DNA from: Planctomycetota bacterium
Lineage (GTDB): Bacteria; Planctomycetota; UBA8108; UBA1146
Direction: 5' to 3'
Assembly: GCA_016776905.1 (NCBI GenBank)
Contig: JADHSM010000001.1
Span: 180,455 to 244,454, forward strand
Length of the DNA stretch: 64,000 nt
The notes under the pieces are model-generated. The model did no database searches and had not been told where the DNA came from. It saw nothing but the letters and a program-made list of their open reading frames with translations. The translations under genes and the position numbers were made by a program. How positions within the stretch are numbered: the stretch's first letter is position 1; the number at the start of each line of letters is the position of its first letter. Positions 885-53,571 of the stretch are shown in pieces.

Positions 885-1388
885 GTGGCAGCGCATTTCA
901 AGGGACAGTTTGAACTGACCCTCGACGATAAGGGGAGAGTGATCATCCCTTCTCGTCTGCGTGCCAAGATCGATCCTCGTTGCGACGGTGAGGGATTTGT
1001 TGCCACCGCCGGAACGGCTCCATGTCTCTGGATCTATACGACCGCCGAATGGGATCGGATCTCAGAAGAGACGCGAAAGTACGCCCGAGGATCTGCGGAA
1101 CTGCATGAACTTCAGCGTTATCTCTTCGGAATGGCAGAAGACTTGAACCCGGATCGACAGGGACGGGTGTTGATAGGGAATCGTCTTCGCAACTGGGCCC
1201 AGCTCGATAAGGAAGTGGTCTTCGTCGGTTGCTTCGACAGGATCGAGATCTGGGATGCTGCCGTATGGAATGAACGTAATGAAGATCGCGAGGCTTACCA
1301 AAATCGATTGGATGCCTTCCGTGACGAACACGGTGACTACGCAAGAAGAATGGATCAGTACTTCGGTGGAACTTCCACCGACGTTTGA
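885..1388 (+). CDS. mraZ: Transcriptional regulator MraZ
   Basis: N-terminus AAHFKGQFELTLDDKGRVIIP matches the MraZ hallmark (FxGxxxxxLDxKGRxxxP). First gene of a dcw-type cluster. The ORF track starts at TTG 873; a GTG at 885 gives the canonical N-terminus. Confidence 0.8.
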   Translation: MAAHFKGQFELTLDDKGRVIIPSRLRAKIDPRCDGEGFVATAGTAPCLWIYTTAEWDRISEETRKYARGSAELHELQRYLFGMAEDLNPDRQGRVLIGNRLRNWAQLDKEVVFVGCFDRIEIWDAAVWNERNEDREAYQNRLDAFRDEHGDYARRMDQYFGGTSTDV

Positions 1389-1446
1389 CTGGGGAAGGGT
1401 TGACGAGGGGGAATCGTCAACCAAGGAAAAAAGATGGGGGACAGAG

Positions 1447-1710
1447 ATGATTTCGTTGTTAGATCAACATGTAGATTCGAATCAGAGACAATCGCAGGCC
1501 GTGAGTAGAATCAGGGACTTCCTTTTATCGGGACAGTACCTCGACGAAGCTCCTGATTCCGTATTACGGGATTTAGATCTGCTCTGGGAGCGTATTCAGC
1601 ACGCTCGTGATAATGGTGCAGACGGTGTCCGTCTGTCGAAGAATTTGCACAGGGCAGCCCGTGCACGTGCACTCGGAAAGTTCATCGCACCGACCCTCGA
1701 TCACGTTTGA
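1447..1710 (+). CDS. Small hypothetical protein (87 aa) inserted between mraZ and rsmH
   Basis: ATG at 1447 (MISLLDQHVD...) with a G-rich stretch upstream. The frame exactly fills the mraZ-rsmH gap (stop 1710, rsmH ATG 1724). No recognisable motif. The 5' part of the track ORF 1255-1710 overlaps mraZ and is discounted. Confidence 0.3.
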   Translation: MISLLDQHVDSNQRQSQAVSRIRDFLLSGQYLDEAPDSVLRDLDLLWERIQHARDNGADGVRLSKNLHRAARARALGKFIAPTLDHV

Positions 1711-1723
1711 ATCGTTCGGTCAT

Positions 1724-2614
1724 ATGGCGGGACACGTTCCAGTACTCCTAGAGGAGGTCTTGCAAGGCTTGGCCCCTCTACCCGGAGAAAACTTACTCGA
1801 TCTCACCCTGGGCAGGGGTGGGCACGCACTGGAGATTCTGAAGCTTACCGCTCCTCAGGGTCAATTAGTGGGTGTCGATCGTGATCCCGTTGCATTGGAA
1901 GAGACTGCCACTCGGCTTCCTGCCGAGAGAGTCTTGTTGATTCAAGGTGACTTTGGGCGAATTCCACAGTTGCGAGAGAAGATGGGTTCGGGGACATGGG
2001 ATCTCGTCCTCGCTGATTTGGGAGTCTCTTCACCTCAGATAGACGTGGGTGAAAGAGGATTTTCATTTCGATACGACGGCCCTCTCGATATGAGGATGGA
2101 CCCCACTGAAGGGGAAACAGCAGCGGAATATATTGCAAGGATCGACGAGGCAGGACTTGCCAAAATCATCCACGAATATGGAGAAGATCGTCATTCTCGC
2201 CGTATTGCTTCAGCCATCGTTCAAGAGAGACGTCGTGGAGCGATAGAGACGACAGCTCACCTGGCGAAAATAATTGAAGACCACATGCCGCGATCTCGAG
2301 ATCAGCATCTACATCCCGCGACGCGTACCTTTCAGGCGTTACGTATCGAAGTCAATCGTGAAATGACAGCGCTTCAGCACTTACTTGATCGGACTGGAAA
2401 TCTGCTCTCTCCGGGAGGGCGAATGGCGGTGTTGAGTTACCACTCTCTGGAAGATCGAAAAGTGAAGCAGGTATTCAAGGATCTTATCAAAGAGGGAGAC
2501 CATGAATTAGTGACGACGCGACCTGTTCGCCCAGGTGACGGCGAGTTGCGGAAGAATCCTCGATCTCGATCTGCACGACTCAGGATATTACGCAGGAAAG
2601 GGTCGTCAGAATGA
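1724..2614 (+). CDS. rsmH: 16S rRNA (cytosine1402-N4)-methyltransferase RsmH
   Basis: MAGHVPVLLEEVL...DLTLGRGGHA is the typical RsmH N-terminus and SAM motif. Follows mraZ. Real ATG at 1724 inside the longer track ORF. Confidence 0.9.
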   Translation: MAGHVPVLLEEVLQGLAPLPGENLLDLTLGRGGHALEILKLTAPQGQLVGVDRDPVALEETATRLPAERVLLIQGDFGRIPQLREKMGSGTWDLVLADLGVSSPQIDVGERGFSFRYDGPLDMRMDPTEGETAAEYIARIDEAGLAKIIHEYGEDRHSRRIASAIVQERRRGAIETTAHLAKIIEDHMPRSRDQHLHPATRTFQALRIEVNREMTALQHLLDRTGNLLSPGGRMAVLSYHSLEDRKVKQVFKDLIKEGDHELVTTRPVRPGDGELRKNPRSRSARLRILRRKGSSE

Positions 2615-2892
2615 CAATGAAACGATGGATCCTGATTCTGCTGTTGTTGACGACGGGTACCTTTGCGCTGGTTTGGTGTAAGTCAGATCAGCGAAGGCTG
2701 AAAAGCGAGATTTATAAGAACCAAGCTCTTCTTGTAAGTCTCGATGTGGAGCTCCAAGATTTGCAAATTTTGCAGCAGGGCGAAATCTCTTCACATGTAC
2801 AAAACGGAGCAGAATTGTACGAAAGGCTCGTGGACTTGAAAAATCATGGATTGATAGAGTTCAGTCCCATATTTGCGAATTGGGAAAAATAG
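2611..2892 (+). CDS. ftsL: FtsL-like septum formation protein (bitopic, coiled-coil)
   Basis: 93 aa with an N-terminal transmembrane helix (WILILLLLTTGTFALVW) followed by a coiled-coil-like region. ATGA overlap with the rsmH stop. Sits in the canonical ftsL position between rsmH and ftsI. Confidence 0.5.
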   Translation: MTMKRWILILLLLTTGTFALVWCKSDQRRLKSEIYKNQALLVSLDVELQDLQILQQGEISSHVQNGAELYERLVDLKNHGLIEFSPIFANWEK

Positions 2893-2939
2893 GAGAAGGC
2901 GCACGTCTGGCCCTGAAGTTGCATACCCAGCTGTTGTGA

Positions 2940-5219
2940 ATGAGCACAGCAAAGAGATCTGAAAGCGGTAACACATCCATGACACGAGTTCGTCGTTCTC
3001 CCGCCCAAAAAAAATCGAGCAAACGCCCCTCCAAAATTTCGGACTTCTCTTTGATTCGTGATAATAGAAATATTGTCGGATCCGCGATGTTCATCTGTAT
3101 CCTGCTGGGGTTATGCATCGTCGGTCTTCGTGTGGGGCAAATGCAATTATTGGAACGGGGGATCTGGGAGACTCGTATGGCAAAAGCTCAGAGTCGAAAG
3201 TCCACCGGGAATGAAACTCGCGGAAGCATTTCTGATCGCAATGGAAATTTTCTGGCAGTGGATGTGCCGTTTTTTATTGTCGGCATCGATCCCCTTGGGC
3301 TCTCCAAGAATTGCGCGTCAGATTTCGAAGTGAATCCATTGCTCGTCAAAAAGGAATCTAAGAGAGCCGTGTCTTCCGACGAGTTTTCGAAAGAAATCGC
3401 CATCGACGAGTTTCTAGATATGTTATTGGATTGTGGTCTCCAGCTCGATAATTCTTTGGAGGATACTCTCCTCTCTCTCAAAGCGAGTCTCAAATATAAT
3501 CGCAAATTGAGTCGAGATGCGGGAATCGAAACGGATTCCAAAACGGATTCCAAAACGGATTCCAAAACGGATTCCAAAACGGATTCTAAAACGGATTCTA
3601 AAACGGATTCCGAAACGGATTCCGAAACAAAGACTAGTCCTATTCAATATTTACGTTTGGGAATACTGAGGAGCGTCGCAGAGAAGAATCGATTCGAAGC
3701 ACTCGAGAGGGCACTGACAAAAGATTTTTTGAAGCGGAATGTTTTCCCGAGGTTTGTCACACGATTCGAACGGCTATATCCATATGAAGATTCCCTTCAA
3801 CTACTCTTAGGTGAGATGAGAGGGAAGACAAATGATGGAAATACGGGACTAGAGAATGACAATAATGCAGTATTGAAAAGTCAGAAGACACTTTCAAAGC
3901 AACGCACTGATAGTCGCGGACGTCCGTTAGAAGATCCCACGACGTTGATCCCAGGCTATTCAGGCCAGGACCTTATTCTTTCCATCGACATCTTGTTACA
4001 GAAGGAAGTCGAGCACCTTTGTCTCCAGAATATGCGGAGAACTTCCGCCAAAAGTGTGAGTGCCTTGGTTCTGGATCCATTCACTGGAGAAATCTTTTCT
4101 TGGGTCACTGTTCCAGCACTCGCGAGAGGTGAGAGAACGAGAATCCGCAACACGTTCGAGGAGGCTGAAGCGGATCGTCGGATTCGTGAAAAGAGTTCCC
4201 GTTTAGAGCGATTGCCGAAGGCCCCCGGTTCGGTGGTAAAACCATTGATCATGGCCAAAGCCTTGAGCATGGGTCTTCCTCTCACCTTGGCTCTCGATGT
4301 GAAGAGTAAAGATCAATTTATCGCCAATGAAAATAGTAGCCGAGGCCGCGGCCGAATATTTAGGGACAGTTCTCTTTTGAGAGATAAAACCTTGGCCGGC
4401 GCCGTGATCTATTCGAGCAATATCGGGATGGCTGATCTGGGGTTGCATCACATGTCCAAGAAGCAACTGGCTGAAGGCTTGGAGATGTTTGGTCTGGGGC
4501 AAAGAACTGGGATCGAGCTGTTCGGTGAAGATCTGGGTTTGCTCAAGCCTGTCGAAGATTGGGATTGGTACACCCGAGGATCCGCATGTTTCGGATACGA
4601 GATGCGGGTGACTCCCATCCAGGTGGCCCGGGCATATATGGCGATTGCAAATGGCGGTTATCTTCTCAATCCCACTTTTATGAAAGACAAAGAAGCGAAC
4701 TCAGTCCCTTTTCTGAATGAAGAGGTGGCTCGTAAAACTCGAACTGTTCTGCGGAGAGTCGTGACGGAAGGAACAGGGAGGCATGTGATTCAGCATGTCG
4801 GCCCCGAATTGGTCGATATCATTCGATCCGGTCGATTGGAAATGGCCGGGAAAACCGGCACTATCAAACTGTTGAATGAAAACAAAGAGTTCTCCACAGA
4901 ACTCTATTCCTCCAGTTTTGTGGGGTTTGCTCCCGTGGAAAATGCTCAATTTCTGACCGTTGTCATGGTGGAAGAACCGACAACGGAGGACCGAATGTAC
5001 TATGCCTCGAAGTCTGCAGCCCCGCTGGGAGCACAGATCTTGGCCTCGGCCATGAATCTGTCCGGTTTTGATCCCTATCAAGTGCGGGTGGAGAAGAAGG
5101 AAGAATCCGAGGCTGGGAACTTGGAGGTGAGCCATGAGGCCGGTAATGTGGCCTTGCGGGAAACCTCGACTGGGAGAGTCGTCGTCGAGGAGCAGGAGGG
5201 GGAACCGGAACAGTGGTAG
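2940..5219 (+). CDS. ftsI: Class B penicillin-binding protein (FtsI/PBP3-type transpeptidase) with an internal KTDS repeat insertion
   Basis: N-terminal transmembrane helix. SxxK motif (GSVVKPLIMAKAL), SxN motif (YSSNIGMA) and KTG motif (AGKTGTIK). Sits in the ftsI position of the dcw cluster. Confidence 0.85.
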   Translation: MSTAKRSESGNTSMTRVRRSPAQKKSSKRPSKISDFSLIRDNRNIVGSAMFICILLGLCIVGLRVGQMQLLERGIWETRMAKAQSRKSTGNETRGSISDRNGNFLAVDVPFFIVGIDPLGLSKNCASDFEVNPLLVKKESKRAVSSDEFSKEIAIDEFLDMLLDCGLQLDNSLEDTLLSLKASLKYNRKLSRDAGIETDSKTDSKTDSKTDSKTDSKTDSKTDSETDSETKTSPIQYLRLGILRSVAEKNRFEALERALTKDFLKRNVFPRFVTRFERLYPYEDSLQLLLGEMRGKTNDGNTGLENDNNAVLKSQKTLSKQRTDSRGRPLEDPTTLIPGYSGQDLILSIDILLQKEVEHLCLQNMRRTSAKSVSALVLDPFTGEIFSWVTVPALARGERTRIRNTFEEAEADRRIREKSSRLERLPKAPGSVVKPLIMAKALSMGLPLTLALDVKSKDQFIANENSSRGRGRIFRDSSLLRDKTLAGAVIYSSNIGMADLGLHHMSKKQLAEGLEMFGLGQRTGIELFGEDLGLLKPVEDWDWYTRGSACFGYEMRVTPIQVARAYMAIANGGYLLNPTFMKDKEANSVPFLNEEVARKTRTVLRRVVTEGTGRHVIQHVGPELVDIIRSGRLEMAGKTGTIKLLNENKEFSTELYSSSFVGFAPVENAQFLTVVMVEEPTTEDRMYYASKSAAPLGAQILASAMNLSGFDPYQVRVEKKEESEAGNLEVSHEAGNVALRETSTGRVVVEEQEGEPEQW
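3528..3623 (+). repeat. Perfect tandem repeat, 8 x 12 bp (g/aaaacggattcc), encoding (KTDS)8 in frame inside ftsI
   Basis: Directly visible in the sequence; only wobble variants (c/t) occur between units. Confidence 0.95.
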
Positions 5220-6676
5220 CAACACAAGGGATACCGTTGCCATCATTGAGCAACGAGGATCTGAATCAGATCCTCGGCGTATCTGTGTTGTCGTGTTCTC
5301 AAAAGTTCCGATTCAAGTCTATGGCATGGGACAGTCGTCAATCCGCTGGCGATCTGTTTGTTGCGATTAATGGCATCTCCTTTGACGGTCATCAGCTGAT
5401 CAAAGAGAAGATAGCAGCGGGTGCTCAAGGCATCGTCGCAGAGATTGAACCTCCGCAGGATCTTCCAAAGAATATCAGTTGGTGGCACGTTCAGGATTCT
5501 CGAAAAGAACTGGCTCATTTATCCCATGAGGCTTATGGATCTCCTGCGAGCAAACTTCAGGTCTATGGCGTCACGGGAACGAATGGCAAAAGTAGCACCG
5601 TGCGTTGGCTTGCATCTATTCTTCAATCTGCTGGATTGAAAACCGGGTGGATGACAACCGTGGATCGATGTGTCGCTTCAGAAATCTCGCAGAGTTCTTG
5701 CACCACCGCTCCGGCGACAGAGTTAGCAGAAGCTTTGAATCGTCATCACAAATCGGGGGGGCAAGCGATGGTCTTGGAGGTCTCTTCTCACGCGATTCAT
5801 CAGAGTCGCGTCGCAGGGATCTCATGGGAGGCGGCTGGCGTCACCCAGTTGGGGCGAGATCATCTCGACTATCACAAAACTGTGGACGCTTACCATCGGG
5901 TCAAACTGGGGCTGCAATCCAGTTGTAAGACAGATGGGGCTTTCCTTGTTCCTGTTGAAGGAGAAAGTGATTCTTATGAATCCGCTTTTGAGGACAGACT
6001 CGGAAATAACAGATGGACAGCTCAGGTCGAGGAACGAAACCTGAAGGTGACTCATGCTGTTCTGTCGGGCCCCGGCGTTTCATTGAAAGTGGCACTTCCT
6101 CGACCCGGAAAACACGATCTTTCAAATGCACTTTGCGCTGCCGCCATGGCCTATTCTTCGGGGATTTCAAAGGAAGCGATTCAGAAAGGGCTGGAAACAG
6201 GGGAGTTGGTAGAGGGGCGTATGGAGCAGATCTCTCCGGGGATTTTCGTAGATTACGCTCATACGCCAGATGCACTACAGGCGGTACTGACCACATGCCG
6301 TGATCTTTGCACCGGTTCCCTCAGAGTTGTTTTTGGTTGCGGAGGAGATAGGGATCGAGGCAAGAGGCCCGAGATGGGGCGCGTCGCTGATGAAGCGGCG
6401 GATGTCATCTATCTCACGGATGACAATCCCCGTTCTGAAAACCCATCGGCCATCATTGAGGACATCGTCTCTGGAGTCAGGGACAGAGATTCGATCCGAA
6501 TCAGTTCTGATCGAAGGTCTGCGATTGAAACCGCACTCTCTGATTATCGCCAGGGAGATATTCTGGTCATCGCAGGAAAAGGACATGAGAAAACTCAGGA
6601 AGTAGATGGAGTGTTCTCTCCCTTTAGTGATTCCGAGGTCATCTTAGAATGCCTCGGACAGGATGGTCTGGCATGA
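5213..6676 (+). CDS. murE: UDP-N-acetylmuramoyl-L-alanyl-D-glutamate--2,6-diaminopimelate ligase MurE
   Basis: P-loop GVTGTNGKSST. DNPR motif (LTDDNPRSENP), diagnostic of meso-DAP-adding MurE. GTG start overlaps the ftsI stop; an alternative ATG lies at 5321. Confidence 0.9.
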   Translation: MVATQGIPLPSLSNEDLNQILGVSVLSCSQKFRFKSMAWDSRQSAGDLFVAINGISFDGHQLIKEKIAAGAQGIVAEIEPPQDLPKNISWWHVQDSRKELAHLSHEAYGSPASKLQVYGVTGTNGKSSTVRWLASILQSAGLKTGWMTTVDRCVASEISQSSCTTAPATELAEALNRHHKSGGQAMVLEVSSHAIHQSRVAGISWEAAGVTQLGRDHLDYHKTVDAYHRVKLGLQSSCKTDGAFLVPVEGESDSYESAFEDRLGNNRWTAQVEERNLKVTHAVLSGPGVSLKVALPRPGKHDLSNALCAAAMAYSSGISKEAIQKGLETGELVEGRMEQISPGIFVDYAHTPDALQAVLTTCRDLCTGSLRVVFGCGGDRDRGKRPEMGRVADEAADVIYLTDDNPRSENPSAIIEDIVSGVRDRDSIRISSDRRSAIETALSDYRQGDILVIAGKGHEKTQEVDGVFSPFSDSEVILECLGQDGLA

Positions 6677-8133
6677 AAAAACGCTCTATTCAAGAAGTGC
6701 TGAGGCTCTTGTCGAAGCCGATAGAGATACGCCCCGGAGTGACTTCAAGAGTCGAATGTCAGCCGCTGCGTATCGTCGATGATTTCGCGGTGACCGGGGC
6801 AGCACTCGATAGCCGCCACATTCAGTCCGGGTTTATATTTGCTGCATTCCAAGGTGAGAACTGTCATGGACTGGATCATGTTGAAAGTGCATGGAAATCT
6901 GGAGCATCGGTGGTTCTGACAGAGATCGGAGCTGGAGCCCGAGTGAAAGGGCCCACTCTAGAGGTTCCAAATGTAAAAGAGGCACTGGTTCATCTCGCCA
7001 CGGCCGTGCGAAATGAAGATCGATCCTCAGCTTCCTCTGGATTAAAGACGGTGGCAGTGACGGGGAGTGTTGGAAAAACGACAACCTGTCATGTGGGTTC
7101 TCTTTTGTGTGACTCCCACTTTCAGGTCCATTCGCCTCGTAATTCCTTCAATAACTTGCTGGGTGTTCCGATCACAATTTTAGAGGCGGCAGAAAGTACG
7201 AATTGTCTTTGGTTAGAGATGGGAACCAACAGCCACGGCGAAATTGCTCAACTTGTTGATATCGGGCAACCCGATATAGGAGTAGTGACGGCAGTGGGTG
7301 CGACTCACCTCGAAGGACTGGGATCGGTGGAAGGTGTCTTCAGGGAAAAGTTTTCACTTTTCGACGTGGAGTCTCTTCAGTGGGGCATCGCTCCCGTCGA
7401 ATTTCGAGATGAACGTCTCGAAACCCTCAACGGCGCCCACAGCGGCACCGATTTTATTTGGACGGGGCCGGGAGGGGATCTTGAAATCCAAAACGATTCC
7501 TCCCACGAAATCACCGTCATTGATCGCAGATCAGATCAGAAATTCCCAATAGAAACTTCGATGACCGGATACGGATTCCTTCGCTGCCTAGAATCTTCCA
7601 TTGCGGTAGCTCTGCAACTGGGTATCTCTGCTTCAGACATTCAGCAAGTGGCATCGTCATTGACTCTCCCTCCTATGAGGGCAGAAGTTCACGACGTCAA
7701 AGGCATCCAATTAATTCTAGATTGTTATAACGCTTCACCTCCTTCAGTTCGTGGAGCGATTGGCGACTTGGCGCAATCGGTGGGCGGACGAAGAATCGCC
7801 GTATTGGGAACGATGGAAGAATTGGGTCCAGAGGAAAAACGATACCACCAAGAGATGGGGAGAGCGTGTGTCGAAGAAGGACTCGATTTCGTCGTGGCTT
7901 GGGGAAGAGCCGCGGATTGGATTACGGAGGGGGTGACCTCCGCTGGAGGCACCTGTGAGTCTCCTTCTGACCTAGAATCGGCTCTATCCTTCCTTTCCTC
8001 GGAGTTGAAGGTGGGAGACCGGGTACTGTTTAAAGCTTCCCGAAAAGAAAAACTGGAATTGATGGCTCAGCAGCTCAAAGCGAGATGGCTGACCGTGACC
8101 ACTGAATCAAGGTCGGGGGAGGCCCGTCAATGA
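6673..8133 (+). CDS. murF: UDP-N-acetylmuramoyl-tripeptide--D-alanyl-D-alanine ligase MurF
   Basis: P-loop VAVTGSVGKTTT and Mur ligase architecture. ATGA overlap with the murE stop at 6673-6676. The track ORF starts 24 nt upstream at 6649. Confidence 0.85.
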   Translation: MKKRSIQEVLRLLSKPIEIRPGVTSRVECQPLRIVDDFAVTGAALDSRHIQSGFIFAAFQGENCHGLDHVESAWKSGASVVLTEIGAGARVKGPTLEVPNVKEALVHLATAVRNEDRSSASSGLKTVAVTGSVGKTTTCHVGSLLCDSHFQVHSPRNSFNNLLGVPITILEAAESTNCLWLEMGTNSHGEIAQLVDIGQPDIGVVTAVGATHLEGLGSVEGVFREKFSLFDVESLQWGIAPVEFRDERLETLNGAHSGTDFIWTGPGGDLEIQNDSSHEITVIDRRSDQKFPIETSMTGYGFLRCLESSIAVALQLGISASDIQQVASSLTLPPMRAEVHDVKGIQLILDCYNASPPSVRGAIGDLAQSVGGRRIAVLGTMEELGPEEKRYHQEMGRACVEEGLDFVVAWGRAADWITEGVTSAGGTCESPSDLESALSFLSSELKVGDRVLFKASRKEKLELMAQQLKARWLTVTTESRSGEARQ

Positions 8134-10411: not shown

Positions 10412-11109
10412 TGCATATGTTTCGCTGGGTCCTCTGCGTTTTCATCTTATTCGCGGGTGTTTTTTCATTTAATGGTTGGTGGGATTCTCGTGACGTCATC
10501 ACTTTTGAGCCTCAGGATGTTCTCGCTGTCTCCGAGGTTCAAATGGACTGGCATTCATTGTACTTGCCAAAAACAGACCCCTCAGGAGTGAATCCCCAAT
10601 TGAGAAGTAGTGGCAGAAATGCTGAGATATTGGAATCGGCTGAGAACCGAACGATACCCCAGAGAATCTCTGTTGAGACGGGGCTATCGGAAGAAGGGGG
10701 CAATTCGTCGAATCCCTCCTCCGAGTCTGCTATTCCGGAAACCTATACCATTCGATCAGGTGATACGTTAAGTGAAGTCGCGGAAAGATTTTTTGGCGCG
10801 TGGAGTCGGGGCCAAAAAGAGATTGAGCGATTGAACCCAAAAATTAATGTAAATCGTATCAAGGTCGGACAAGTTCTGATCTTGAGAGGATCTTCTCGAT
10901 TATCGAATCAGGAAGAGAATGAATCTTCCAATAAAATCTCCATAGATAATCAGTTATTAGTTCATCGTGTAAAGAATGGTGAAAGCTTAGCTGCTATTGC
11001 AGTCCGCTATTACGGAAATGAAAATTGGGAGAAGATTCATAAAGCGAACCTGAATATCTTACCTAACCCAAATCGACTGAAAGTCGGCATGGAACTTGTG
11101 ATTCCCTAA
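10411..11109 (+). CDS. Membrane-anchored protein with two LysM peptidoglycan-binding domains
   Basis: N-terminal transmembrane helix. Two LysM-like segments (YTIRSGDTLSEVAERFFG...IKVGQVLIL and HRVKNGESLAAIAVRYYG...LKVGMELVIP). AGGAGG ribosome-binding site at 10401-10406. Confidence 0.7.
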   Translation: MHMFRWVLCVFILFAGVFSFNGWWDSRDVITFEPQDVLAVSEVQMDWHSLYLPKTDPSGVNPQLRSSGRNAEILESAENRTIPQRISVETGLSEEGGNSSNPSSESAIPETYTIRSGDTLSEVAERFFGAWSRGQKEIERLNPKINVNRIKVGQVLILRGSSRLSNQEENESSNKISIDNQLLVHRVKNGESLAAIAVRYYGNENWEKIHKANLNILPNPNRLKVGMELVIP

Positions 11110-11137
11110 TGGTGATATCTAGAGAGTTGTTTCAGGA

Positions 11138-12544
11138 ATGGATCCTTTTTTGAGTGCTGTAAGTGGCGCAACGAATGATCACTCTGCAGTCCACATCGTG
11201 GGTATTGGAGGCAGTGCCACTCGTGGTATGGCAAGTCTGCTTCAATGTCAGGGGGTTCGAGTTTCTGGAAGTGACCAAGACGAGGCCATGAGGGAGTGGT
11301 TTAGTGAAAAAGGAATCGCTTTTCACTGTGATCATGACGCAGGAAATATTCCAGCTGAAGTGACCGCTGTCGTGCATTCGCGCGCGGTGGGTGAGGACAA
11401 TCCCGAAATCATTGAAGCTCAACGCCGAGGTATTCCTATTTATGCTTATAGTGAGTATTTGGGGCGCTTAGGAATCGGAAAGAACACGATAGCAGTATCC
11501 GGTACACATGGGAAAACATCGACAACCGCACTTTTACTGAGCGTTTTTCTTGAAGCGGATCAAGATCCCTCTCTCATCGCTGGCGGTGACATTCAGCAGT
11601 TAGAGGCTGGCTGGCGGCATGGAGAAGGAGATCACTTTCTCGTCGAGGCTTGTGAGTTCCAAAGAGCATTTCTCGATATCAAACCTGAAGCAGCCATCAT
11701 TACAAATATTGATCTCGATCATCCCGAAATTTACAGTAACAGATCCGAGGTTGTGGAAACATTCCGGGATTTCATCTCCGGATTCCCTCAGCAGTCGGTG
11801 GTGGTTTGTTCTCCCGAAATTCGTTCTGAATTGGGAGGAAGGGAAGATCTGCGTTGGGTGACATGTGGCCGAACTGAAGATTGTGATGTTCGAATCATTC
11901 ATGAGAGTGGTCAGGCGTATTCCACTGTTGAATGGAAACTTGAGAAGAGTGCCCAGCTCAAAGCGACACTTCAAGTCCCAGGGGATCACTCGGTAGAGAA
12001 TGCGACTAAAGTTGTCGCTCTCTGTCATGCTCTCGGAATTAGTCCTGAGCATATTCAGTCAGGATTGGAAAAATTCCAAGGTGTGGCCCGCAGGTTCGAA
12101 TCCAGAGAGGTTCTTCAAGGGACACATTGGATTGAGGATTACGCTCACCATCCTCAAGAGGTTGAGGCGACTCTTAGAACTGCTCAGTCCCTCTTCCGTG
12201 AAAATAAGATACATGCACTCTTTCAGCCTCATCAGGCAGGAAGACTCAGCGCATTCATGGATGGTTTTTCGAATTCCTTCCAGGGGATGGATGAAGTTTT
12301 CCTGTTACCGATTTATTCAGTCAGGGAGAACATTTCTGATTTCCCTGAGGATCTATTGGATCAATTACGAGCGAAAATTGAAGAGCAGGGTGTTCACTGT
12401 AAGATTCTTGACTTTGATACTGCTCCTGGTTTTCTTGCTGAAACATTGAGTGAAGGCGACGTTCTCGTTTCCTTAGGGGCGGGAAACGTAGATCAAATTG
12501 GAACTCGCACTCGTGAGATCGCGAGAGGGGTGATCCCATCTTGA
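11138..12544 (+). CDS. murC: UDP-N-acetylmuramate--L-alanine ligase MurC
   Basis: N-terminal IHIVGIGGSATRGMA and P-loop VSGTHGKTSTTALL. Position after murG. Confidence 0.9.
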   Translation: MDPFLSAVSGATNDHSAVHIVGIGGSATRGMASLLQCQGVRVSGSDQDEAMREWFSEKGIAFHCDHDAGNIPAEVTAVVHSRAVGEDNPEIIEAQRRGIPIYAYSEYLGRLGIGKNTIAVSGTHGKTSTTALLLSVFLEADQDPSLIAGGDIQQLEAGWRHGEGDHFLVEACEFQRAFLDIKPEAAIITNIDLDHPEIYSNRSEVVETFRDFISGFPQQSVVVCSPEIRSELGGREDLRWVTCGRTEDCDVRIIHESGQAYSTVEWKLEKSAQLKATLQVPGDHSVENATKVVALCHALGISPEHIQSGLEKFQGVARRFESREVLQGTHWIEDYAHHPQEVEATLRTAQSLFRENKIHALFQPHQAGRLSAFMDGFSNSFQGMDEVFLLPIYSVRENISDFPEDLLDQLRAKIEEQGVHCKILDFDTAPGFLAETLSEGDVLVSLGAGNVDQIGTRTREIARGVIPS

Positions 12545-12576
12545 AGCGACCCGAGGGAATAAAAACTGACATAGAG

Positions 12577-13452
12577 ATGAAGCAATACTCTTGGTTCAGA
12601 AGTGGGGGGCTGTCTCGATATTTTTCGAGACCCAAATCGATCGCAGAAATGATCGATGTGATTCGATGGGCACGATCGGAATCGCATGAGATTTCCCTAT
12701 TGGGTCTCGGTGCGAACATGTTGTTTCCCGACGAATATTTCGATGGTCTCGTTCTTCAAACAACCAAGCTCAAATCAACCATGCTCAAATCAAATGAGAA
12801 TTTCCAGTTTTTCAATGAATCTGAAATTGATGTTTCCGCAGGAGTTCAACTGGAGCGATTAGTGAACAGTTTAAATTCTCAGGGTTTAGCAGGATTGGAG
12901 AATCTTGCTGGAATCCCTGGGACAATTGGGGGATCTGTTTGGGGGAATGCCGGAGCAGGTCATGGTTCGATCTCGGAACAAGTGGTCGCAGTTCAGTGTA
13001 TCGACTCTAACTGTGAACTCCGTTGGATTTCGGCAGATGAGTTTGAATGGAGTTACAGGTACTCAGGTATCGGTGACCACATTATTTGTGCAGTTCGATT
13101 CCGTGTTGAACCGAACTCAGACCCCGTGAGATTGCAGGAAAGTAGTCGAGACCTGAAGGCATACAAGGAGAGTGTTCAGCCTTATGAGCAAAAATCGACA
13201 GGCTGTATTTTCCGAAACCCTGAATCGGGACCTGGAGCGGGTCAATTGATCGATAACGCAGGTCTTAAGGGTTGGACTGTTGGAGGAGCGAAAATCTCAG
13301 AGCTCCATGGGAATTTCATCGTCAATGAATCGAATGCGACCACAGCAGATGTTCTGGAACTTGTTCATACCATCGAAGAGAAGATTTTTTCGCAAACAGG
13401 TATCCGATTAGATCGTGAAGTCATTTTGGCATGCCAGGAGAAGTCGCGATGA
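12577..13452 (+). CDS. murB: UDP-N-acetylenolpyruvoylglucosamine reductase MurB
   Basis: FAD-binding-type N-terminus (FRSGGLSRYF...LGLGANMLF) and MurB C-terminal domain. The track ORF begins at TTG 12541, overlapping the murC stop; ATG 12577 gives the usual length. Confidence 0.85.
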   Translation: MKQYSWFRSGGLSRYFSRPKSIAEMIDVIRWARSESHEISLLGLGANMLFPDEYFDGLVLQTTKLKSTMLKSNENFQFFNESEIDVSAGVQLERLVNSLNSQGLAGLENLAGIPGTIGGSVWGNAGAGHGSISEQVVAVQCIDSNCELRWISADEFEWSYRYSGIGDHIICAVRFRVEPNSDPVRLQESSRDLKAYKESVQPYEQKSTGCIFRNPESGPGAGQLIDNAGLKGWTVGGAKISELHGNFIVNESNATTADVLELVHTIEEKIFSQTGIRLDREVILACQEKSR

Positions 13453-14288
13453 ACCAGCACTCAGAGGTCTCTCCCCCCTGGTTTCGATTCTTGTTTGCGA
13501 TCTTCCTGTTTGTGGGGGCGGGATTATTCATTTCTCACGCCAAGAATACTATCGATGACCAACAATTGAGAGCTCGGGGTGATTGGCAAATCGATCAAAA
13601 GAGTTTTCCAAGTTGGCTTCCTGAAAGTAAAACGCCGCAGTTCCGGGATCTGAATTTGATTCCTTCAAGAATCCAGCATGATAGTGTTCGTTGGAAAGAT
13701 CAGGTTCAGCAAGAGTTGCTCGGCAACCCTTGGATAGTGGCGGTCGATTCGATATCTCGCACGGGAACCCAAATTAGTTTTCATGCAAAAATTCAGAGAC
13801 CTTTAGTCGGTGTGGTCATTCCGGGAGGGCATCTCCTTGTGAATTCCAATGGCGGAGTGATTGAGTTTATCCGTGGTGATTTTCTGGATTCGAACTGGGG
13901 AATCCCTGAATTCATGCCATCTCGGGTTGGGGTGTTATCGGAAGAGTCGACGGAACTTCCGGAAGAATCTGAGTATCAACAATTACGATTACTCCTCCAG
14001 ACTCTTGAAAAAGGCGAAATCCTGAGGAGGTTTCCCCAATTTATTCGAGATATCCAACGCTTGCCTATGGAAGGTGGGGATCTATGGATTCTTGTTTGTA
14101 CAGGTGGGTTAAGGCTTCTCTGGGGACGTGTTCCCACTGCTGAGGTGGTGATGGCGTCCTCTCTGGGGGATAAATTGGCGGCTCTGGAGTACGTGATTGG
14201 GAAATCTCAGGAACTGATCGAGATCTCCCCAGGCATCGAGCGCATCAGCCTCTGTGAGGGCCCGGTTCCCTTTATTAAGATGCGCTGA
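13449..14288 (+). CDS. FtsQ/DivIB-like bitopic protein (candidate)
   Basis: Short cytoplasmic N-terminus, a single transmembrane helix (WFRFLFAIFLFVGAGLFI) and a roughly 230-aa extracytoplasmic domain. ATGA overlap with the murB stop. It occupies the ftsQ position; similarity to POTRA is assumed from position and topology only. Confidence 0.4.
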   Translation: MNQHSEVSPPWFRFLFAIFLFVGAGLFISHAKNTIDDQQLRARGDWQIDQKSFPSWLPESKTPQFRDLNLIPSRIQHDSVRWKDQVQQELLGNPWIVAVDSISRTGTQISFHAKIQRPLVGVVIPGGHLLVNSNGGVIEFIRGDFLDSNWGIPEFMPSRVGVLSEESTELPEESEYQQLRLLLQTLEKGEILRRFPQFIRDIQRLPMEGGDLWILVCTGGLRLLWGRVPTAEVVMASSLGDKLAALEYVIGKSQELIEISPGIERISLCEGPVPFIKMR

Positions 14289-14365
14289 GCCTAAATCTCA
14301 CCGTGATCCGTGACTTCGAGAGGTAGCGTATATCGGTCAGGAAGTTTATCCTGCTCAATTCATGG

Positions 14366-14704
14366 GTGGGTTGTCAGCAATCGAATGGATTTCTGAAACC
14401 CTCTCAGGATTTCAGCAACTCGACAGGAGTTAGGGTGGCCTCAAAGGATAGGTACCGGCGATTGATCGGAGAAGTGGCTCAGGAAATGGGTTTTGTGGAG
14501 GCAGATGCCATCCAGGAAGCGCTTTCACTGCAAAACCAACTTCGTTCAGAGGGCCGTAAGGTTCCATTGCTGGGACAGCTTCTGGTGGAGTTGAACCATC
14601 TCACTACGGATCAATTGCAGCAATTGATCGAGATCATCTACCCCGTGGAGGATGCGGATTCTCCACCTTCGGCGGAGACCCCAGAGGCAAGTGAGGAAGA
14701 CTGA
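14366..14704 (+). CDS. Small protein with two MshEN-like (cyclic-di-GMP-binding-type) motifs
   Basis: RLIGEVAQEMGFVEADAIQEALSLQ and LLGQLLVELNHLTTDQLQQLIEI both resemble the RLGxx(L/V/I)(L/V/I)xxG(L/V/I)(L/V/I)xxxxLxxxLxxQ motif of the MshEN/T2SE N-terminal domain. The stop overlaps the start of the next gene (TGATG). Confidence 0.35.
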   Translation: MGCQQSNGFLKPSQDFSNSTGVRVASKDRYRRLIGEVAQEMGFVEADAIQEALSLQNQLRSEGRKVPLLGQLLVELNHLTTDQLQQLIEIIYPVEDADSPPSAETPEASEED

Positions 14705-16791
14705 TGTCAGATGAAGGAAAAAAGAAACGGCGAGTCCCGGCACCTCGAAAAAAAGGTGTGGCTCCAGAAGGGCAAGCCAAAAAGGTCCCCCCAAGGAGAA
14801 TAGCACCCGGAAAAGCATCCGGAGCAGATCCCGTAGCAGCAGGAAAAGCAGGAGCTTCCCAGAACCCCGTCACTCCTGAAGGCGGCTCTCCGCAAGCGGC
14901 AGCACAGCAAGCGGCAGCAGCACAGCAAGCGGCAGCACAGCAATCCGCGGCAAAGCAAGCGGCAGCAAAGCAAGCGGCAGCAAAGCAAGCGGCGGCAAAG
15001 CAAGCGGCGGCAAAGCAAGCGGCGGCACAGCAAGCGGCAGCACAGCAAGCGGCGGCAAAGCAAGCGGCGGCAAAGCAAGCGGCGGCACAGCAAGCGGCGG
15101 CAAAGCAAGCGGCATTACAGAAGGCTGCAGCGGTGCAACAGGCGGCAGCCAAGCAAGAGGCCCTAAAACGAGCGGCAGGTCAACAAGCGGCAGGTCAACA
15201 AGCGGCAGGTCAACAAGCCGCTCCGACCGGAAAAGCCACTGGCAGAGCACCCGGAAAAACACCCGGAAAAACACCCGCAAAAGCATCTGGGAAAGCACCA
15301 TCGCGAGCAACCCGATCAGGTCGAGCTCCTGCCAGAGGAGCTTCTTCAGATCGAACTCAGCCCCGAAAGATGGCGAAGACTGGAAGACGTCAACCGGTGA
15401 AGGGGCCCTTGGCAGATGGAGATGAAGACGTCGCCGAGCAGTCGAAATCATTGCCGCTCATATTAGGTGGAGTCGGAGTCGTTCTTGTCATCGCAGTCAT
15501 CGGATTCCTGATGAGTGGGGGCGATACTCCAGTGGAGCCTGTCGTCAAGAAGGTTGCGAAGGCGCCAGTAAAGAGTCAGAAGGAAATTCGTGAAGAGAGG
15601 GCTCGTAAAGCTCTGGACCGTGCCGAGAAAGAAAATGCTGCAGAGCCCGGCGAGAGATTTAGGTGTGCTGCAAGGTTGAGAAGTGTGGCCATGGAATACT
15701 CCAATACCACTGCAGGTGCAGAAGCTGGAGAATTGCGTTCGACTCTCCTGAATACATGGCGTACCGAAGTCGATGGCGCATGGAACTCTCTCAGATCCGA
15801 TGTATTGCTGGCATTCAGCGAGGCACGATTTGAACAGGCGAGTCGCCTTCTTGAAGAATTGCCGCCAGTATTCCTGGGGGCTTCTCAGGTGCTCGAGGGG
15901 AAATTTGAACAAGAAATCGTTCTGTTGAAGAAGGATGCCAAAGCTCAATTACTCTTCAAGAAACAGCTAGATGAACTCTCTACTAAAGCCGGATTCTATG
16001 CACGAAAAGGCTACGAGGATATCGCCTTGGCAGTCATCGAGGCTCTTCCTGAAAAGGTTCAGGAAGATGCTCCAGACGTATGGCGTCTCAAAGAGGAGTT
16101 GATCCAGAAAATCCAGCGAGAAGGGCTCACTCTTCTTATGGAGCAAGAGTCTGCACTCGAAGCAGAAATAGCCGAAGCAAGACGTCTGGAAAAGGAACGT
16201 AAAGCGGCTGAAAGAATTCGTCGCTGGCTGGATATGAGAGACTCTGTGGCGTGGAAACCTCTGTTGGGGAAATCCAATCTGTATAACTGGGTTGCCTCCA
16301 GTGACAGAATGAGAGACATGCAGGGAGAAAGAACCTTGTGGCGCGTGATGGAGAGAAATGGTGAGGGAGTCCTTCTGATCGATAACCGTTCAGGGAGCGA
16401 TTCATACACCGGTGTCTATAGCAATCACTGGGAAGATTACCTCCTAGAGTTTGAGTTGAATCTCAAGGTGGGGGCACTTCGTATCTCACCTCGAACTCAG
16501 GCGGATGCGCAACGGGGAGCGATCACTGATGGGACTTCTCCACCTTTGGAGTTGGGAGACGATTTCCCTAAAAACCGCTGGCTGAAAGTGACTCTCGAAG
16601 TCCATGGGAAATCGGTGACACTTCGCTATGGAGATGGGGGAGACAAAATTGAGCTCGACCCTGAAACCACGCGATTGCCCAGCAGTGGTGGATTTGTTTT
16701 CTACGCAGCAGATGGAACTCGCCTCGAGATCAGGGGTGTGCGAGTGAAGATTGTCAATGACACTCGCGAGGGTGGTATCTTCGCCAAGTAA
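14704..16791 (+). CDS. Bitopic membrane protein with an Ala/Gln/Lys-repeat basic cytoplasmic tail, coiled coil and a C-terminal beta-rich domain (function unknown)
   Basis: 695 aa. Basic N-terminus (KKKRRVPAPRKK), about 45 x (AAAKQ/AAAQQ) repeats, a transmembrane helix (LPLILGGVGVVLVIAVIGFLM), a coiled-coil region and a roughly 150-aa C-terminal domain. Last gene of the dcw block, followed by a strong terminator. Confidence 0.6.
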   Translation: MSDEGKKKRRVPAPRKKGVAPEGQAKKVPPRRIAPGKASGADPVAAGKAGASQNPVTPEGGSPQAAAQQAAAAQQAAAQQSAAKQAAAKQAAAKQAAAKQAAAKQAAAQQAAAQQAAAKQAAAKQAAAQQAAAKQAALQKAAAVQQAAAKQEALKRAAGQQAAGQQAAGQQAAPTGKATGRAPGKTPGKTPAKASGKAPSRATRSGRAPARGASSDRTQPRKMAKTGRRQPVKGPLADGDEDVAEQSKSLPLILGGVGVVLVIAVIGFLMSGGDTPVEPVVKKVAKAPVKSQKEIREERARKALDRAEKENAAEPGERFRCAARLRSVAMEYSNTTAGAEAGELRSTLLNTWRTEVDGAWNSLRSDVLLAFSEARFEQASRLLEELPPVFLGASQVLEGKFEQEIVLLKKDAKAQLLFKKQLDELSTKAGFYARKGYEDIALAVIEALPEKVQEDAPDVWRLKEELIQKIQREGLTLLMEQESALEAEIAEARRLEKERKAAERIRRWLDMRDSVAWKPLLGKSNLYNWVASSDRMRDMQGERTLWRVMERNGEGVLLIDNRSGSDSYTGVYSNHWEDYLLEFELNLKVGALRISPRTQADAQRGAITDGTSPPLELGDDFPKNRWLKVTLEVHGKSVTLRYGDGGDKIELDPETTRLPSSGGFVFYAADGTRLEIRGVRVKIVNDTREGGIFAK
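14893..15225 (+). repeat. 15-bp tandem repeat array (caagcggcagcaaag / ...cacag variants, then 3 x caagcggcaggtcaa) encoding (QAAAK/QAAAQ)n and (QAAGQ)3
   Basis: Directly visible; it produces spurious antisense ORFs in the six-frame track. Confidence 0.9.
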
Positions 16792-16817
16792 GAGGTCGTT
16801 TTTAGTTGGAATCAAAA

Positions 16818-16856
16818 AGGGACGAAAACCGGTTCAGGTTTTCGTCCCTTTTTATG
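16818..16856 (+). terminator. Rho-independent terminator (13-bp perfect stem agggacgaaaacc/ggttttcgtccct followed by TTTTTA)
   Basis: Seen directly, 27 bp after the stop at 16791. Confidence 0.85.
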
Positions 16857-18943: not shown

Positions 18944-18963
18944 AAAATTGAGGGAGAACTCTA

Positions 18964-20568: not shown

Positions 20569-20576
20569 GGGAATCC

Positions 20577-21692: not shown

Positions 21693-21702
21693 GAGCCAGA
21701 AT

Positions 21703-52155: not shown

Positions 52156-52179
52156 TCGCCTCGATCGTATCTGAGTTTA

Positions 52180-53569: not shown

Positions 53570-53571
53570 AT

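What the first reader, a model, noticed from the sequence alone, without database searches (positions are those of the whole stretch)
885..16856. FtsZ/FtsA-less, compacted dcw cluster lacking mraY, murD and ddl
The gene order is mraZ - small ORF - rsmH - ftsL-like - ftsI - murE - murF - ftsW - murG - LysM protein - murC - murB - FtsQ-like - MshEN-like - AQ-rich bitopic protein, followed by a strong terminator. Several junctions are ATGA or 4-nt overlaps, which suggests tight translational coupling. No mraY, murD, ddl, ftsA or ftsZ genes are present. A canonical cluster runs murF-mraY-murD-ftsW and ends ...ddl-ftsQ-ftsA-ftsZ. Planctomycetia are known to lack FtsZ, and their divisome is largely unknown. 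The three genes occupying the 'ftsQAZ slot' are therefore prime candidates for lineage-specific division factors.
Basis: partly seen in the sequence, partly recalled or inferred. Interest (0 to 1): 0.7.

Follow-up and report, generated by a model that had tools for sequence, protein, structure and literature searches.

The report
Planctomycete cell-wall cluster with unknown tail genes
This is the cell-wall/division gene cluster of an uncultured marine planctomycete. It ends in a real but very divergent FtsQ, followed by a conserved pair of uncharacterised genes that may act in the still-unknown FtsZ-free division of these bacteria.

Summary
HMM searches confirm the order mraZ, small ORF, rsmH, FtsL-like, ftsI, murE, murF, ftsW, murG, LysM gene, murC, murB, then three unassigned genes and a strong terminator. 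Eight gene junctions overlap by 1 or 4 nt. No mraY, murD, ddl, ftsA or ftsZ occurs in the cluster or in the other large ORFs scanned in the 64-kb window.

The same layout recurs in 15 distinct lineages of uncultured Planctomycetota.

- **Genes 2 and 3 are a separate pair.** Their stop and start codons overlap, and a 146-nt gap separates them from ftsQ. In deeper relatives an inserted SAM_HAT gene occupies that position.
- **Gene 2** is an 89-aa stand-alone MshEN_N-type module, the c-di-GMP-receptor fold, with degenerate binding motifs.
- **Gene 3** is a bitopic protein with a basic (AAKQA)n cytoplasmic tail, a periplasmic helical region and a weakly supported lectin-like DUF1080 domain.

The pair is linked to the downstream groEL-groEL-dnaJ-grpE block as tightly as to ftsQ, so a division role is only an inference from position. 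FtsZ loss and dcw erosion in planctomycetes are already published. The pair is new but is known only from uncultured genomes.

The parts
775..801 (+). Three direct repeats with a 10-bp period (AAGTGGG / AAGTGGG / AAGGGGA). They look like MraZ operator boxes and lie about 85-110 nt upstream of mraZ.
   Evidence: Read directly from the sequence. It matches the published MraZ box pattern of GTG(G/T) with a 6-nt spacer (PMC12957436). The repeat finder did not report it because it is too short. Binding was not tested.
885..1388 (+). mraZ
   Evidence: PF02381 97 bits; TIGR00242 117 bits, above its 98 cutoff. The start at GTG 885 has a GGAG about 8 nt upstream.
1447..1710 (+). 87-aa ORF of unknown function between mraZ and rsmH
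   Evidence: No Pfam or NCBIfam hit. Codon usage is gene-like in frame only. Conservation in relatives could not be tested.
1724..2614 (+). rsmH (mraW), 16S rRNA m4C1402 methyltransferase
   Evidence: PF01795 311 bits. With ATG 1724 the protein starts MAGHVPVLLEEVL. The N-terminal extension from 1607 is not coding-like.
2611..2892 (+). FtsL-like bitopic protein of 93 aa, with an N-terminal TM helix followed by a leucine-rich helix
   Evidence: It sits at the canonical ftsL position and has an ATGA overlap with rsmH. Topology is read from the sequence. It is 91% identical in L001 with dN/dS 0.16. No FtsL or DivIC family hit.
2940..5219 (+). ftsI (class B PBP transpeptidase)
   Evidence: PF00905 145 bits and PF03717.
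5213..6676 (+). murE
   Evidence: TIGR01085 413 bits; NF001126 416 bits, above its 373 cutoff.
6673..8133 (+). murF
   Evidence: TIGR01143 286 bits against a cutoff of 288.6. ATG 6673 forms an ATGA overlap with the murE stop.
8130..9290 (+). ftsW (SEDS glycosyltransferase), directly after murF with no mraY or murD between
   Evidence: PF01098 210 bits. TIGR02614 is the best hit at 224 bits, below its 337.5 cutoff. ATGA overlap.
9287..10411 (+). murG
   Evidence: PF03033 and PF04101 above their cutoffs. TIGR01133 is the best hit at 183 bits, below its 250 cutoff. ATGA overlap.
10411..11109 (+). Membrane-anchored protein with two LysM domains, inserted between murG and murC
   Evidence: PF01476 69 bits in 2 stretches. 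The N-terminal hydrophobic anchor is read from the sequence. A protein with a LysM Pfam hit (weak in several) sits at this position in all eight annotated relatives.
11138..12544 (+). murC
   Evidence: TIGR01082 366 bits, above its 335 cutoff.
12541..13452 (+). murB
   Evidence: NF010480 267 bits, above its 259 cutoff. TTGA overlap with murC.
13449..14288 (+). Divergent ftsQ (279 aa): N-terminal TM helix, then a periplasmic POTRA domain and beta domain
14435..14704 (+). 89-aa stand-alone MshEN_N-like protein: two tandem 24-residue helix-turn-helix motifs and an acidic tail
   Evidence: The family profile hits PilF 6f8l (E 1.8e-6) and the MshE N-domain 5htl (E 3e-4) across both motifs. NF053729 scores 26.9 bits, below its 38 cutoff. 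It is 42-67% identical across the clade, at least as conserved as MurB.
14704..16791 (+). 695-aa bitopic protein. The N-terminal ~248 aa form a basic and (AAKQA)n tail. The TM helix is at about residues 249-271 (nt 15448-15516). The periplasmic part has a helical-repeat region, a long helix and a C-terminal beta-sandwich.
   Evidence: Sequence. Start overlaps the stop of the MshEN-like gene by 1 nt. Homologues are 26-100% identical and found only in Planctomycetota MAGs. AF2 pLDDT is 66: the helical part is 80-90 and the beta domain 45-70. Foldseek gives DUF1080 / 3-keto-glycoside hydratase / CBM66 structures at E 0.015-0.1. PF06439 matches 6 of 21 members weakly.
14892..15113 (+). 15-nt tandem repeat, 14.6 copies, encoding the (AAKQA)n tract
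   Evidence: TRF score 326. A relative with an identical C-terminal 439 aa is 683 aa long rather than 695.
16813..16853 (+). Intrinsic terminator that closes the two-gene unit
   Evidence: Stem GGGACGAAAACC/GGTTTTCGTCCC followed by TTTTT. Folding energy -31.6 kcal/mol, z = -5.5.

Best explanation

**Unit 1 (885-14288).** This is one tightly packed run of genes: mraZ, orf87, rsmH, an FtsL-like gene, ftsI, murE, murF, ftsW, murG, a LysM gene, murC, murB and ftsQ. Stop and start codons overlap at seven junctions. The unit is probably auto-regulated by MraZ through GTGG boxes upstream.
- It supplies five cytoplasmic peptidoglycan-precursor steps (MurB, MurC, MurE, MurF, MurG).
- It also supplies the FtsQ/FtsL-like/FtsW/FtsI membrane synthase core and a peptidoglycan-binding LysM protein.
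- MurA, MurD, Ddl and MraY must be encoded elsewhere if peptidoglycan is made. That is an inference.
- The gene after murB is FtsQ itself, strongly diverged in sequence but with the FtsQ/DivIB fold. That is shown.

**Unit 2 (14435-16853).** This is a separate pair with overlapping stop and start codons, closed by a strong terminator.
- The first gene encodes an 89-aa cytoplasmic MshEN_N-type four-helix module.
- The second encodes a bitopic membrane protein. Its basic, histone-H1-like repeat tail faces the cytoplasm. Its helical spacer and lectin-like (DUF1080-type) domain face the periplasm.

**Most likely working model (inferred, not shown).** The small protein is a nucleotide- or partner-binding adaptor, with c-di-GMP the obvious candidate ligand. 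It docks through its acidic tail on the basic cytoplasmic tail of the bitopic protein. The bitopic protein reaches a glycan in the periplasm, either peptidoglycan or another envelope polysaccharide. The pair would then couple a cytoplasmic signal to envelope growth next to the FtsQLWI machinery. This is the architectural logic of FtsN/SPOR-type bitopic proteins, without homology to them.
For: - Gene identities.
- Overlapping junctions.
- MraZ-type boxes.
- FtsQ fold. Weak PF03799 hits in 8 of 17 relatives. A relative named FtsQ/DivIB by NCBI.
- MshEN_N homology: the profile matches 5htl and 6f8l over both motifs, with subthreshold NF053729. Motif I keeps 5 of 6 key positions and motif II keeps 4 of 6, judged against the rule in PMC5013675.
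- Bitopic architecture. Lectin-like C-terminus.
- The order ftsQ, (SAM_HAT), small gene, bitopic gene is kept in all 17 contigs long enough to show it, from 15 lineages. It holds down to 26-35% identity of FtsQ and MurB.
- The small protein stays 42-67% identical where MurB is 35-48% identical.
- Purifying selection on every gene.
- Terminator.
Against: - No experiment or expression data exist. All relatives are uncultured MAGs.
- The pair is separated from ftsQ by 146 nt, and by a whole SAM_HAT gene in deeper relatives. Co-transcription with the dcw operon is therefore unproven.
- The pair is equally syntenic with groEL-groEL-dnaJ-grpE. In one short contig (L027) the small gene sits next to a divergently oriented groEL with no ftsQ within 400 nt.
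- In both motifs the Arg of 'RLG' is Leu. The closing Gln of motif II is Ile or Leu. The spacer is 11 aa rather than 5. c-di-GMP binding may therefore be lost.
- The lectin-like assignment rests on a low-confidence part of the model and on weak scores (Foldseek E of at least 0.015; Pfam E of at least 0.03).
- The H1/HC2 hits are compositional and below cutoff (19.8 against 40 bits).
- In P. limnophila most dcw genes, including ftsQ, are dispensable (PMC10632474). Adjacency to dcw genes therefore says little about division.
Confidence: 0.6

Rival explanations
1. The MshEN-like/bitopic pair has nothing to do with division or peptidoglycan. It is an independent envelope, stress or nucleoid-anchoring unit that happens to lie between the dcw cluster and the groEL-groEL-dnaJ-grpE block. 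It may be functionally tied to the chaperone genes instead.
For: - The pair has its own intergenic gap of 146 nt and its own terminator.
- A SAM_HAT gene lies between ftsQ and the pair in L005, L007 and L008, with a remnant in L010.
- groEL follows the pair in every contig long enough to show it.
- In L027 the small gene lies next to a divergently oriented groEL with no ftsQ.
- The basic (AAKQA)n tail resembles histone-H1-like DNA binders: HC2 and NF038053, both below cutoff.
Against: - The strong terminator and about 450-520 nt of non-coding sequence separate the pair from groEL1.
- The pair keeps its position directly downstream of ftsQ in 15 lineages.
- A periplasmic lectin-like domain fits an envelope-glycan role better than a cytoplasmic chaperone role.
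Confidence: 0.3
2. One reading: all three terminal genes are lineage-specific division factors that replace FtsQ, FtsA and FtsZ.
For: - They occupy the position of ftsQAZ.
- They have no family hit above threshold.
- They are syntenic across the clade.
Against: - The first gene is FtsQ by fold and by weak family hits.
- Nothing in the other two resembles an actin-like or tubulin-like NTPase or any filament former.
- dcw genes are dispensable in P. limnophila.
Confidence: 0.07
3. The cluster is a decaying remnant, or an assembly or binning artefact.
For: - Planctomycete dcw clusters are described as eroded (PMC12673574).
- Some relatives carry conflicting phylum labels, Bacillota or Pseudomonadota.
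Against: - All ORFs are intact, and dN/dS is 0.13-0.46.
- The same order is seen in independent assemblies from NCBI, ENA, JGI and Logan covering 15 lineages.
Confidence: 0.03

Closest known systems
Canonical bacterial dcw cluster (mraZ-rsmH-ftsL-ftsI-murE-murF-mraY-murD-ftsW-murG-murC-(murB)-ddl-ftsQ-ftsA-ftsZ), and its eroded form described for Planctomycetota
   Same: The 5' end is the same (mraZ and rsmH, with MraZ-type boxes). The relative order of ftsI, murE, murF, ftsW, murG, murC, murB and ftsQ is the same. The loss of ftsA and ftsZ is as reported for all planctomycetes (PMC12673574, PMC8871954).
   Different: - mraY and murD are excised from between murF and ftsW.
- ddl is excised from between murB and ftsQ.
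- A LysM gene is inserted between murG and murC.
- An extra 87-aa ORF lies between mraZ and rsmH.
- The cluster is not fragmented here. It is compact and stable across 15 lineages.
FtsQ/DivIB (PF03799, PF08478; PDB 8bh1, 6h9n, 2alj)
   Different: Sequence identity to solved FtsQ and DivIB is 14-18%. The window protein has no Pfam hit, and a family profile finds no FtsQ in the PDB by sequence. The usual partner FtsB is reported as lost in all planctomycetes (PMC12673574).
MshEN / GSPII-type c-di-GMP-binding domain (V. cholerae MshE 5HTL; T. thermophilus PilF 6F8L; PF05157; NF053729)
   Same: Two tandem 24-residue motifs of the form hGxxhhxxGhhxxxxhxxxhxxQ, a predicted four-helix MshEN_N unit, and a basic patch at the N-terminus.
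   Different: - It is a stand-alone 89-aa protein, not the N-terminus of an ATPase, glycosyltransferase or kinase.
- The Arg of 'RLG' is Leu in both motifs.
- The closing Gln of motif II is Ile or Leu.
- The spacer is 11 aa, not 5.
- The score is below the NCBIfam cutoff.
- The window's own PilB (53572-55290) carries a canonical MshEN domain and is only marginally similar to it.
FtsN/SPOR-type and LysM-type bitopic divisome proteins (analogy only)
   Same: A cytoplasmic tail, one TM helix, a long periplasmic spacer and a C-terminal glycan-binding domain, encoded next to divisome genes.
   Different: There is no SPOR or LysM domain in the bitopic protein and no sequence or fold homology. The cytoplasmic tail is about 248 aa long and repeat-rich. 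The periplasmic domain is a ConA-like jelly roll (DUF1080 type), assigned only tentatively.

Membership tests
Canonical dcw cluster | mraZ-rsmH at the 5' end, followed by ftsL and ftsI | tested here: met
   MraZ, RsmH and FtsI are found by HMM. The FtsL-like gene is assigned by position and topology only.
Canonical dcw cluster | mraY and murD between murF and ftsW; ddl before ftsQ | tested here: not met
   murF/ftsW and murB/ftsQ overlap by 4 nt. No PF00953, MurD equivalog or Ddl family is present in the cluster, in the other large ORFs scanned in the window, or within 10 kb in eight annotated relatives.
Canonical dcw cluster | ftsA and ftsZ after ftsQ | tested here: not met
   ftsQ is followed by the MshEN-like gene, the bitopic gene, a terminator, groEL x2, dnaJ and grpE.
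FtsQ/DivIB | Single N-terminal TM helix, then a periplasmic POTRA domain and FtsQ beta domain | tested here: met
FtsQ/DivIB | Sequence match to PF03799 or PF08478 above the gathering score | tested here: not met
   The window protein has no hit. 8 of 17 family members match PF03799 weakly, best E 2e-4. A PDB profile search found no FtsQ.
FtsQ/DivIB | Complex formation with FtsL (and FtsB) and recruitment of FtsW/FtsI | not testable with these tools
   An FtsL-like gene, ftsW and ftsI are in the same operon. No FtsB was seen, and FtsB is reported as lost in the phylum (PMC12673574).
MshEN c-di-GMP receptor domain | Two tandem 24-residue motifs RLGxxhhxxGhhxxxxLxxxLxxQ joined by a 5-residue spacer (PMC5013675) | tested here: inconclusive
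   Both motifs are recognisable and align to MshE residues 6-56. However, Arg is replaced by Leu in both motifs, Gln by Ile or Leu in motif II, and the spacer is 11 aa.
MshEN c-di-GMP receptor domain | Score above the curated cutoff of NF053729 or PF05157 | tested here: not met
   NF053729 scores 26.9 bits against a cutoff of 38. No PF05157 hit.
MshEN c-di-GMP receptor domain | Binds c-di-GMP | not testable with these tools
   This needs ITC or DRaCALA with purified protein.
DUF1080 / 3-keto-disaccharide hydrolase (PF06439), ConA-like jelly roll | Sequence or fold match of the C-terminal ~190 aa of the bitopic protein | tested here: inconclusive
   PF06439 matches 6 of 21 members, best E 0.03. 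Foldseek's best hits are DUF1080 structures and CBM66 at E 0.015-0.1, prob 0.8-0.95, on a domain with pLDDT 45-70. A PDB profile search found nothing.
Histone H1-like / HC2 nucleoprotein | Score above the PF07382 or NF038053 cutoff | tested here: not met
   19.8 bits against 40, and 29.6 bits against 80. The match is to a low-complexity Ala/Lys/Gln repeat.

The most novel reading that the evidence does not exclude
The stand-alone MshEN_N protein and its bitopic partner form a second-messenger-controlled organiser of FtsZ-independent envelope growth or budding in this planctomycete clade. The small protein would sense c-di-GMP or a related signal. The partner's basic tail would act as a membrane-tethered cytoplasmic hub in place of FtsA or ZipA. 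Its periplasmic lectin-like domain would read the glycan state in place of FtsN. Together they would switch on the FtsQ/FtsL/FtsW/FtsI synthase encoded just upstream.
Probability: 0.15. Interest if true: 0.8.

Novelty: new variant of a known kind. Interest (0 to 1): 0.45.

Why it matters
How planctomycetes divide without FtsZ is unresolved. Reviews up to 2025 list no division machinery beyond FtsK.

This locus shows that one uncultured marine clade keeps a compact, selected FtsQ/FtsL-like/FtsW/FtsI-plus-Mur operon rather than an eroded one. It also shows that highly diverged FtsQ proteins are missed by standard HMMs. That matters for presence/absence tables of division genes in this phylum.

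The locus gives three concrete candidates for lineage-specific envelope or division functions: the intra-cluster LysM protein, the MshEN_N-like protein and the bitopic lectin-like protein.

The value is limited. The clade is uncultured. The family is narrow, with 19 FtsQ-like representatives among 1.84 billion proteins. And dcw genes are dispensable in the one planctomycete tested.

Tried and rejected
- **Word-indexed protein search, FtsQ-like protein.** It gave 1 hit with the single sequence and 2 with the profile, because of the candidate cap. The exhaustive HMMER search was needed.
- **Genome-contig scan with MurB.** I therefore could not search whole related genomes for mraY, murD, ddl, murA or ftsK, and I could not test cultured planctomycetes.
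- **Exact look-up of the 285-aa ORF.** It found nothing because the true start is 6 codons downstream.
- **Look-up with a locus-derived MurE.** Conservation of the 87-aa ORF and of the MraZ boxes is therefore untested.
- **PDB sequence searches.** Profiles of FtsQ and of the lectin-like domain found nothing significant.
- **CdgR.** The cyanobacterial c-di-GMP cell-size effector was considered as an analogue, but it is a different fold.
- **CIRCE operator upstream of groEL.** None found.
- **orf118 (16904-17260).** Rejected as a gene because its codon usage is not gene-like.
- **HC2/H1 identity of the tail.** Rejected as compositional.

Full report
**1. Observation**

ORF listing and HMM scans confirm the reported gene order on the + strand.
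- MraZ: TIGR00242, 117 bits.
- An unassigned small ORF.
- RsmH: PF01795, 311 bits.
- An unassigned 93-aa bitopic ORF at the ftsL position.
- A class-B PBP, FtsI.
- MurE: TIGR01085, 413 bits.
- MurF: TIGR01143, 286 bits, just under its 288.6 cutoff.
- FtsW: PF01098, 210 bits.
- MurG.
- A membrane-anchored protein with two LysM domains.
- MurC: TIGR01082, 366 bits.
- MurB: NF010480, 267 bits.
- Three ORFs with no family hit above threshold.

Inspection of in-frame starts, the gene calls in relatives and a codon-usage test refine several starts: rsmH at 1724, murF at 6673, murG at 9287, the FtsQ-like gene at 13449 (279 aa) and the MshEN-like gene at 14435 (89 aa).

With these starts there are five ATGA overlaps, one TTGA overlap and two 1-nt TGATG overlaps.

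The terminator at 16813-16853 has a 12-bp GC-rich stem followed by T5. Folding energy is -31.6 kcal/mol, z = -5.5.

The 87-aa ORF at 1447-1710 has gene-like codon usage in its own frame only. It has no homologue that I could test.

No MraY, MurD, Ddl, FtsA or FtsZ family was detected in the cluster ORFs or in the other non-overlapping ORFs of at least 150 aa that I scanned. One such ORF, 63153-63758 on the minus strand, was not scanned. Two groEL paralogues, dnaJ and grpE follow the terminator.

**2. Source and conservation**

The closest genome hit is an uncultured MAG contig (L001) with 91% MurB identity and an identical gene order.

Homologues of the third terminal gene occur only in marine MAGs. 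They are labelled Planctomycetia or Planctomycetota bacterium, with two probable mis-binnings.

I looked up contigs that carry those homologues, and contigs that carry distant FtsQ-like relatives. I also ran a metagenome scan with a profile of the small protein. This produced 24 loci belonging to the clade.
- All contigs long enough show ftsI, murE, murF, ftsW, murG, LysM, murC, murB, the FtsQ-like gene, the small gene, the bitopic gene, groEL, groEL, dnaJ and grpE, in that order.
- By FtsQ identity below 90%, these represent 15 lineages.
- The most distant have MurB at 35-40% and FtsQ-like at 26-30% identity to the window.
- In the deeper branches (L005, L007, L008, with a remnant in L010) a SAM_HAT gene lies between the FtsQ-like gene and the small gene.
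- Against L001, every gene has dN/dS of 0.13-0.46.

The arrangement is therefore real, selected and clade-wide.

**3. The FtsQ-like gene is FtsQ**

A single-sequence exhaustive HMMER search found only 19 relatives among 1.84 billion representatives, and no annotated FtsQ. Of 17 aligned family members, 8 weakly match PF03799 (FtsQ_DivIB_C), best E 2e-4.

An AlphaFold model built on that alignment is confident, with pLDDT 86.3 and pTM 0.76. It shows an N-terminal helix followed by two alpha/beta domains.

NCBI names a 40%-identical relative 'cell division protein FtsQ/DivIB'. The gene is a highly diverged FtsQ. It is not a replacement for FtsQ.

**4. The small protein**

Eight orthologues align without difficulty. 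They share DRYRR-x-FGEVA…G-x-V…EAL-x-x-Q and LLGQ-x-L-x-E…Q…YP.

The profile matches T. thermophilus PilF (E 1.8e-6) and the V. cholerae MshE N-terminal domain (E 3e-4). The MshE match covers residues 6-56, which is the 53-residue c-di-GMP-binding unit. NCBIfam NF053729 matches below its cutoff, 26.9 against 38 bits.

I compared it with the published motif RLGxxhhxxGhhxxxxLxxxLxxQ, present twice with a 5-residue spacer (PMC5013675).
- The hydrophobic and Gly positions are largely kept.
- The Arg is Leu in both motifs.
- The terminal Gln of motif II is Ile or Leu.
- The spacer is 11 residues.

That paper reports that hydrophobic positions matter more than Arg9 for affinity, so binding is possible but unproven.

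The same module occurs as the N-terminus of a PilB-type ATPase, a histidine kinase and a GAF protein in unrelated contigs. Here it stands alone with an acidic tail. It is the best-conserved of the three terminal proteins.

**5. The bitopic protein**

Its parts, from N- to C-terminus:
- Residues 1-35 form a conserved, very basic motif (KKRRVPxPRKK…RVPxRR).
- Residues of about 60-165 are (AAKQA)n, encoded by a 15-nt tandem repeat of 14.6 copies.
- More basic, Pro-rich sequence follows.
- The TM helix lies at about residues 249-271.

The positive-inside rule places the N-terminus in the cytoplasm. That is an inference.

The periplasmic part is modelled as follows:
- A helical-repeat region and a long helix, pLDDT 80-90.
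- A C-terminal beta domain, pLDDT 45-70.

**6. What belongs together**

Unit 1 runs from mraZ to ftsQ with no gap above about 60 nt, apart from the mraZ-rsmH region that holds orf87.

Upstream of mraZ are three 10-bp-spaced AAGTGGG-type repeats. They match the published MraZ box spacing.

Unit 2, the small gene plus the bitopic gene, starts 146 nt after ftsQ. It has a GGAG-type ribosome site, overlapping stop and start codons and its own terminator.

Its linkage to ftsQ is conserved but interruptible, as the SAM_HAT insertion shows. Its linkage to groEL is just as conserved. In the short contig L027 the small gene abuts a divergently oriented groEL. Position alone cannot assign the pair to division.

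**7. Relation to the literature**

The following are already published:
- Loss of ftsZ and ftsB in all planctomycetes, and of ftsA in most.
- Retention of the mur and fts genes mainly in Planctomycetales, Phycisphaerae and Brocadiia.
- Sources: PMC12673574; PMC12283558; PMC8871954.

In P. limnophila, ftsQ, ftsI, ftsW, mraY1 and mraY2, mraW and the mur genes are non-essential, and only ftsK is essential (PMC10632474).

My searches found no paper that describes the LysM insertion, the MshEN_N-like gene or the bitopic gene.

**8. Verdict**

The cluster is a new, stable variant of a known kind. One 'novel' gene is FtsQ. The remaining pair is a genuinely uncharacterised, conserved unit. A role in envelope growth or division is plausible, but it rests on position and domain architecture only.

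I give interest 0.45. I give about 0.15 to the strong reading, in which the pair is a second-messenger-controlled organiser of FtsZ-less division. That reading would merit about 0.8 if true.

Noticed in passing
window 775-801: Three 10-bp-spaced direct repeats (AAGTGGG, AAGTGGG, AAGGGGA) lie upstream of mraZ. They match the published GTG(G/T)+6-nt MraZ box pattern.
   Followed up: partly
window 14892-15113: A 15-nt tandem repeat (14.6 copies) encodes (AAKQA)n in the bitopic gene. A relative with an identical C-terminal 439 aa is 683 aa long rather than 695, which suggests repeat-number variation.
   Followed up: partly
window 17309-22353; L002, L003, L008: A conserved block of groEL, groEL (paralogues about 42% identical), dnaJ and grpE lies directly downstream. 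In relatives it continues with a Zn-ribbon gene and yacG. No CIRCE operator occurs anywhere in the window.
   Followed up: partly
window 16857-17308: The roughly 450-nt region between the terminator and groEL1 contains a 118-aa ORF whose codon usage is not gene-like. Part of it is still 77% identical at the protein level in L001. It may be a regulatory leader for groEL.
   Followed up: no
L005 10886-11707; L007 10894-11718; L008 10840-11664; L010 2534-2782: In deeper relatives a SAM hydroxide adenosyltransferase (SAM_HAT, DUF62) gene sits between ftsQ and the MshEN-like gene. L010 keeps only an 82-aa remnant, and the window lineage has lost it.
   Followed up: partly
window 50089-59517: A type IV pilus / T2SS-like cluster: prepilin peptidase, an OmpA-family protein, two T2SSE ATPases (one with a canonical MshEN domain, 53572-55290) and PilC. 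It is followed by a PAS histidine kinase and a sigma-54 response regulator.
   Followed up: no
window 35788-38718 (-): A 976-aa protein with an N-terminal DUF4388 domain. Seven of the eight MshEN-like small proteins also weakly match DUF4388 (best E 2e-4), which suggests a shared helical motif.
   Followed up: no
L027 1-845: In a short GC-rich metagenome contig, the MshEN-like gene lies next to a divergently oriented groEL with no ftsQ within 400 nt. This is the only locus found that breaks the ftsQ linkage.
   Followed up: partly
window 33221-34841: An ECF sigma factor followed by an anti-sigma protein with zf-HC2 and FecR domains.
   Followed up: no
protein clusters of P0024 and P0005: Near-identical members of the bitopic-protein clusters are labelled Bacillota or Pseudomonadota bacterium in NCBI MAGs. 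These are probably mis-binned planctomycete contigs.
   Followed up: no
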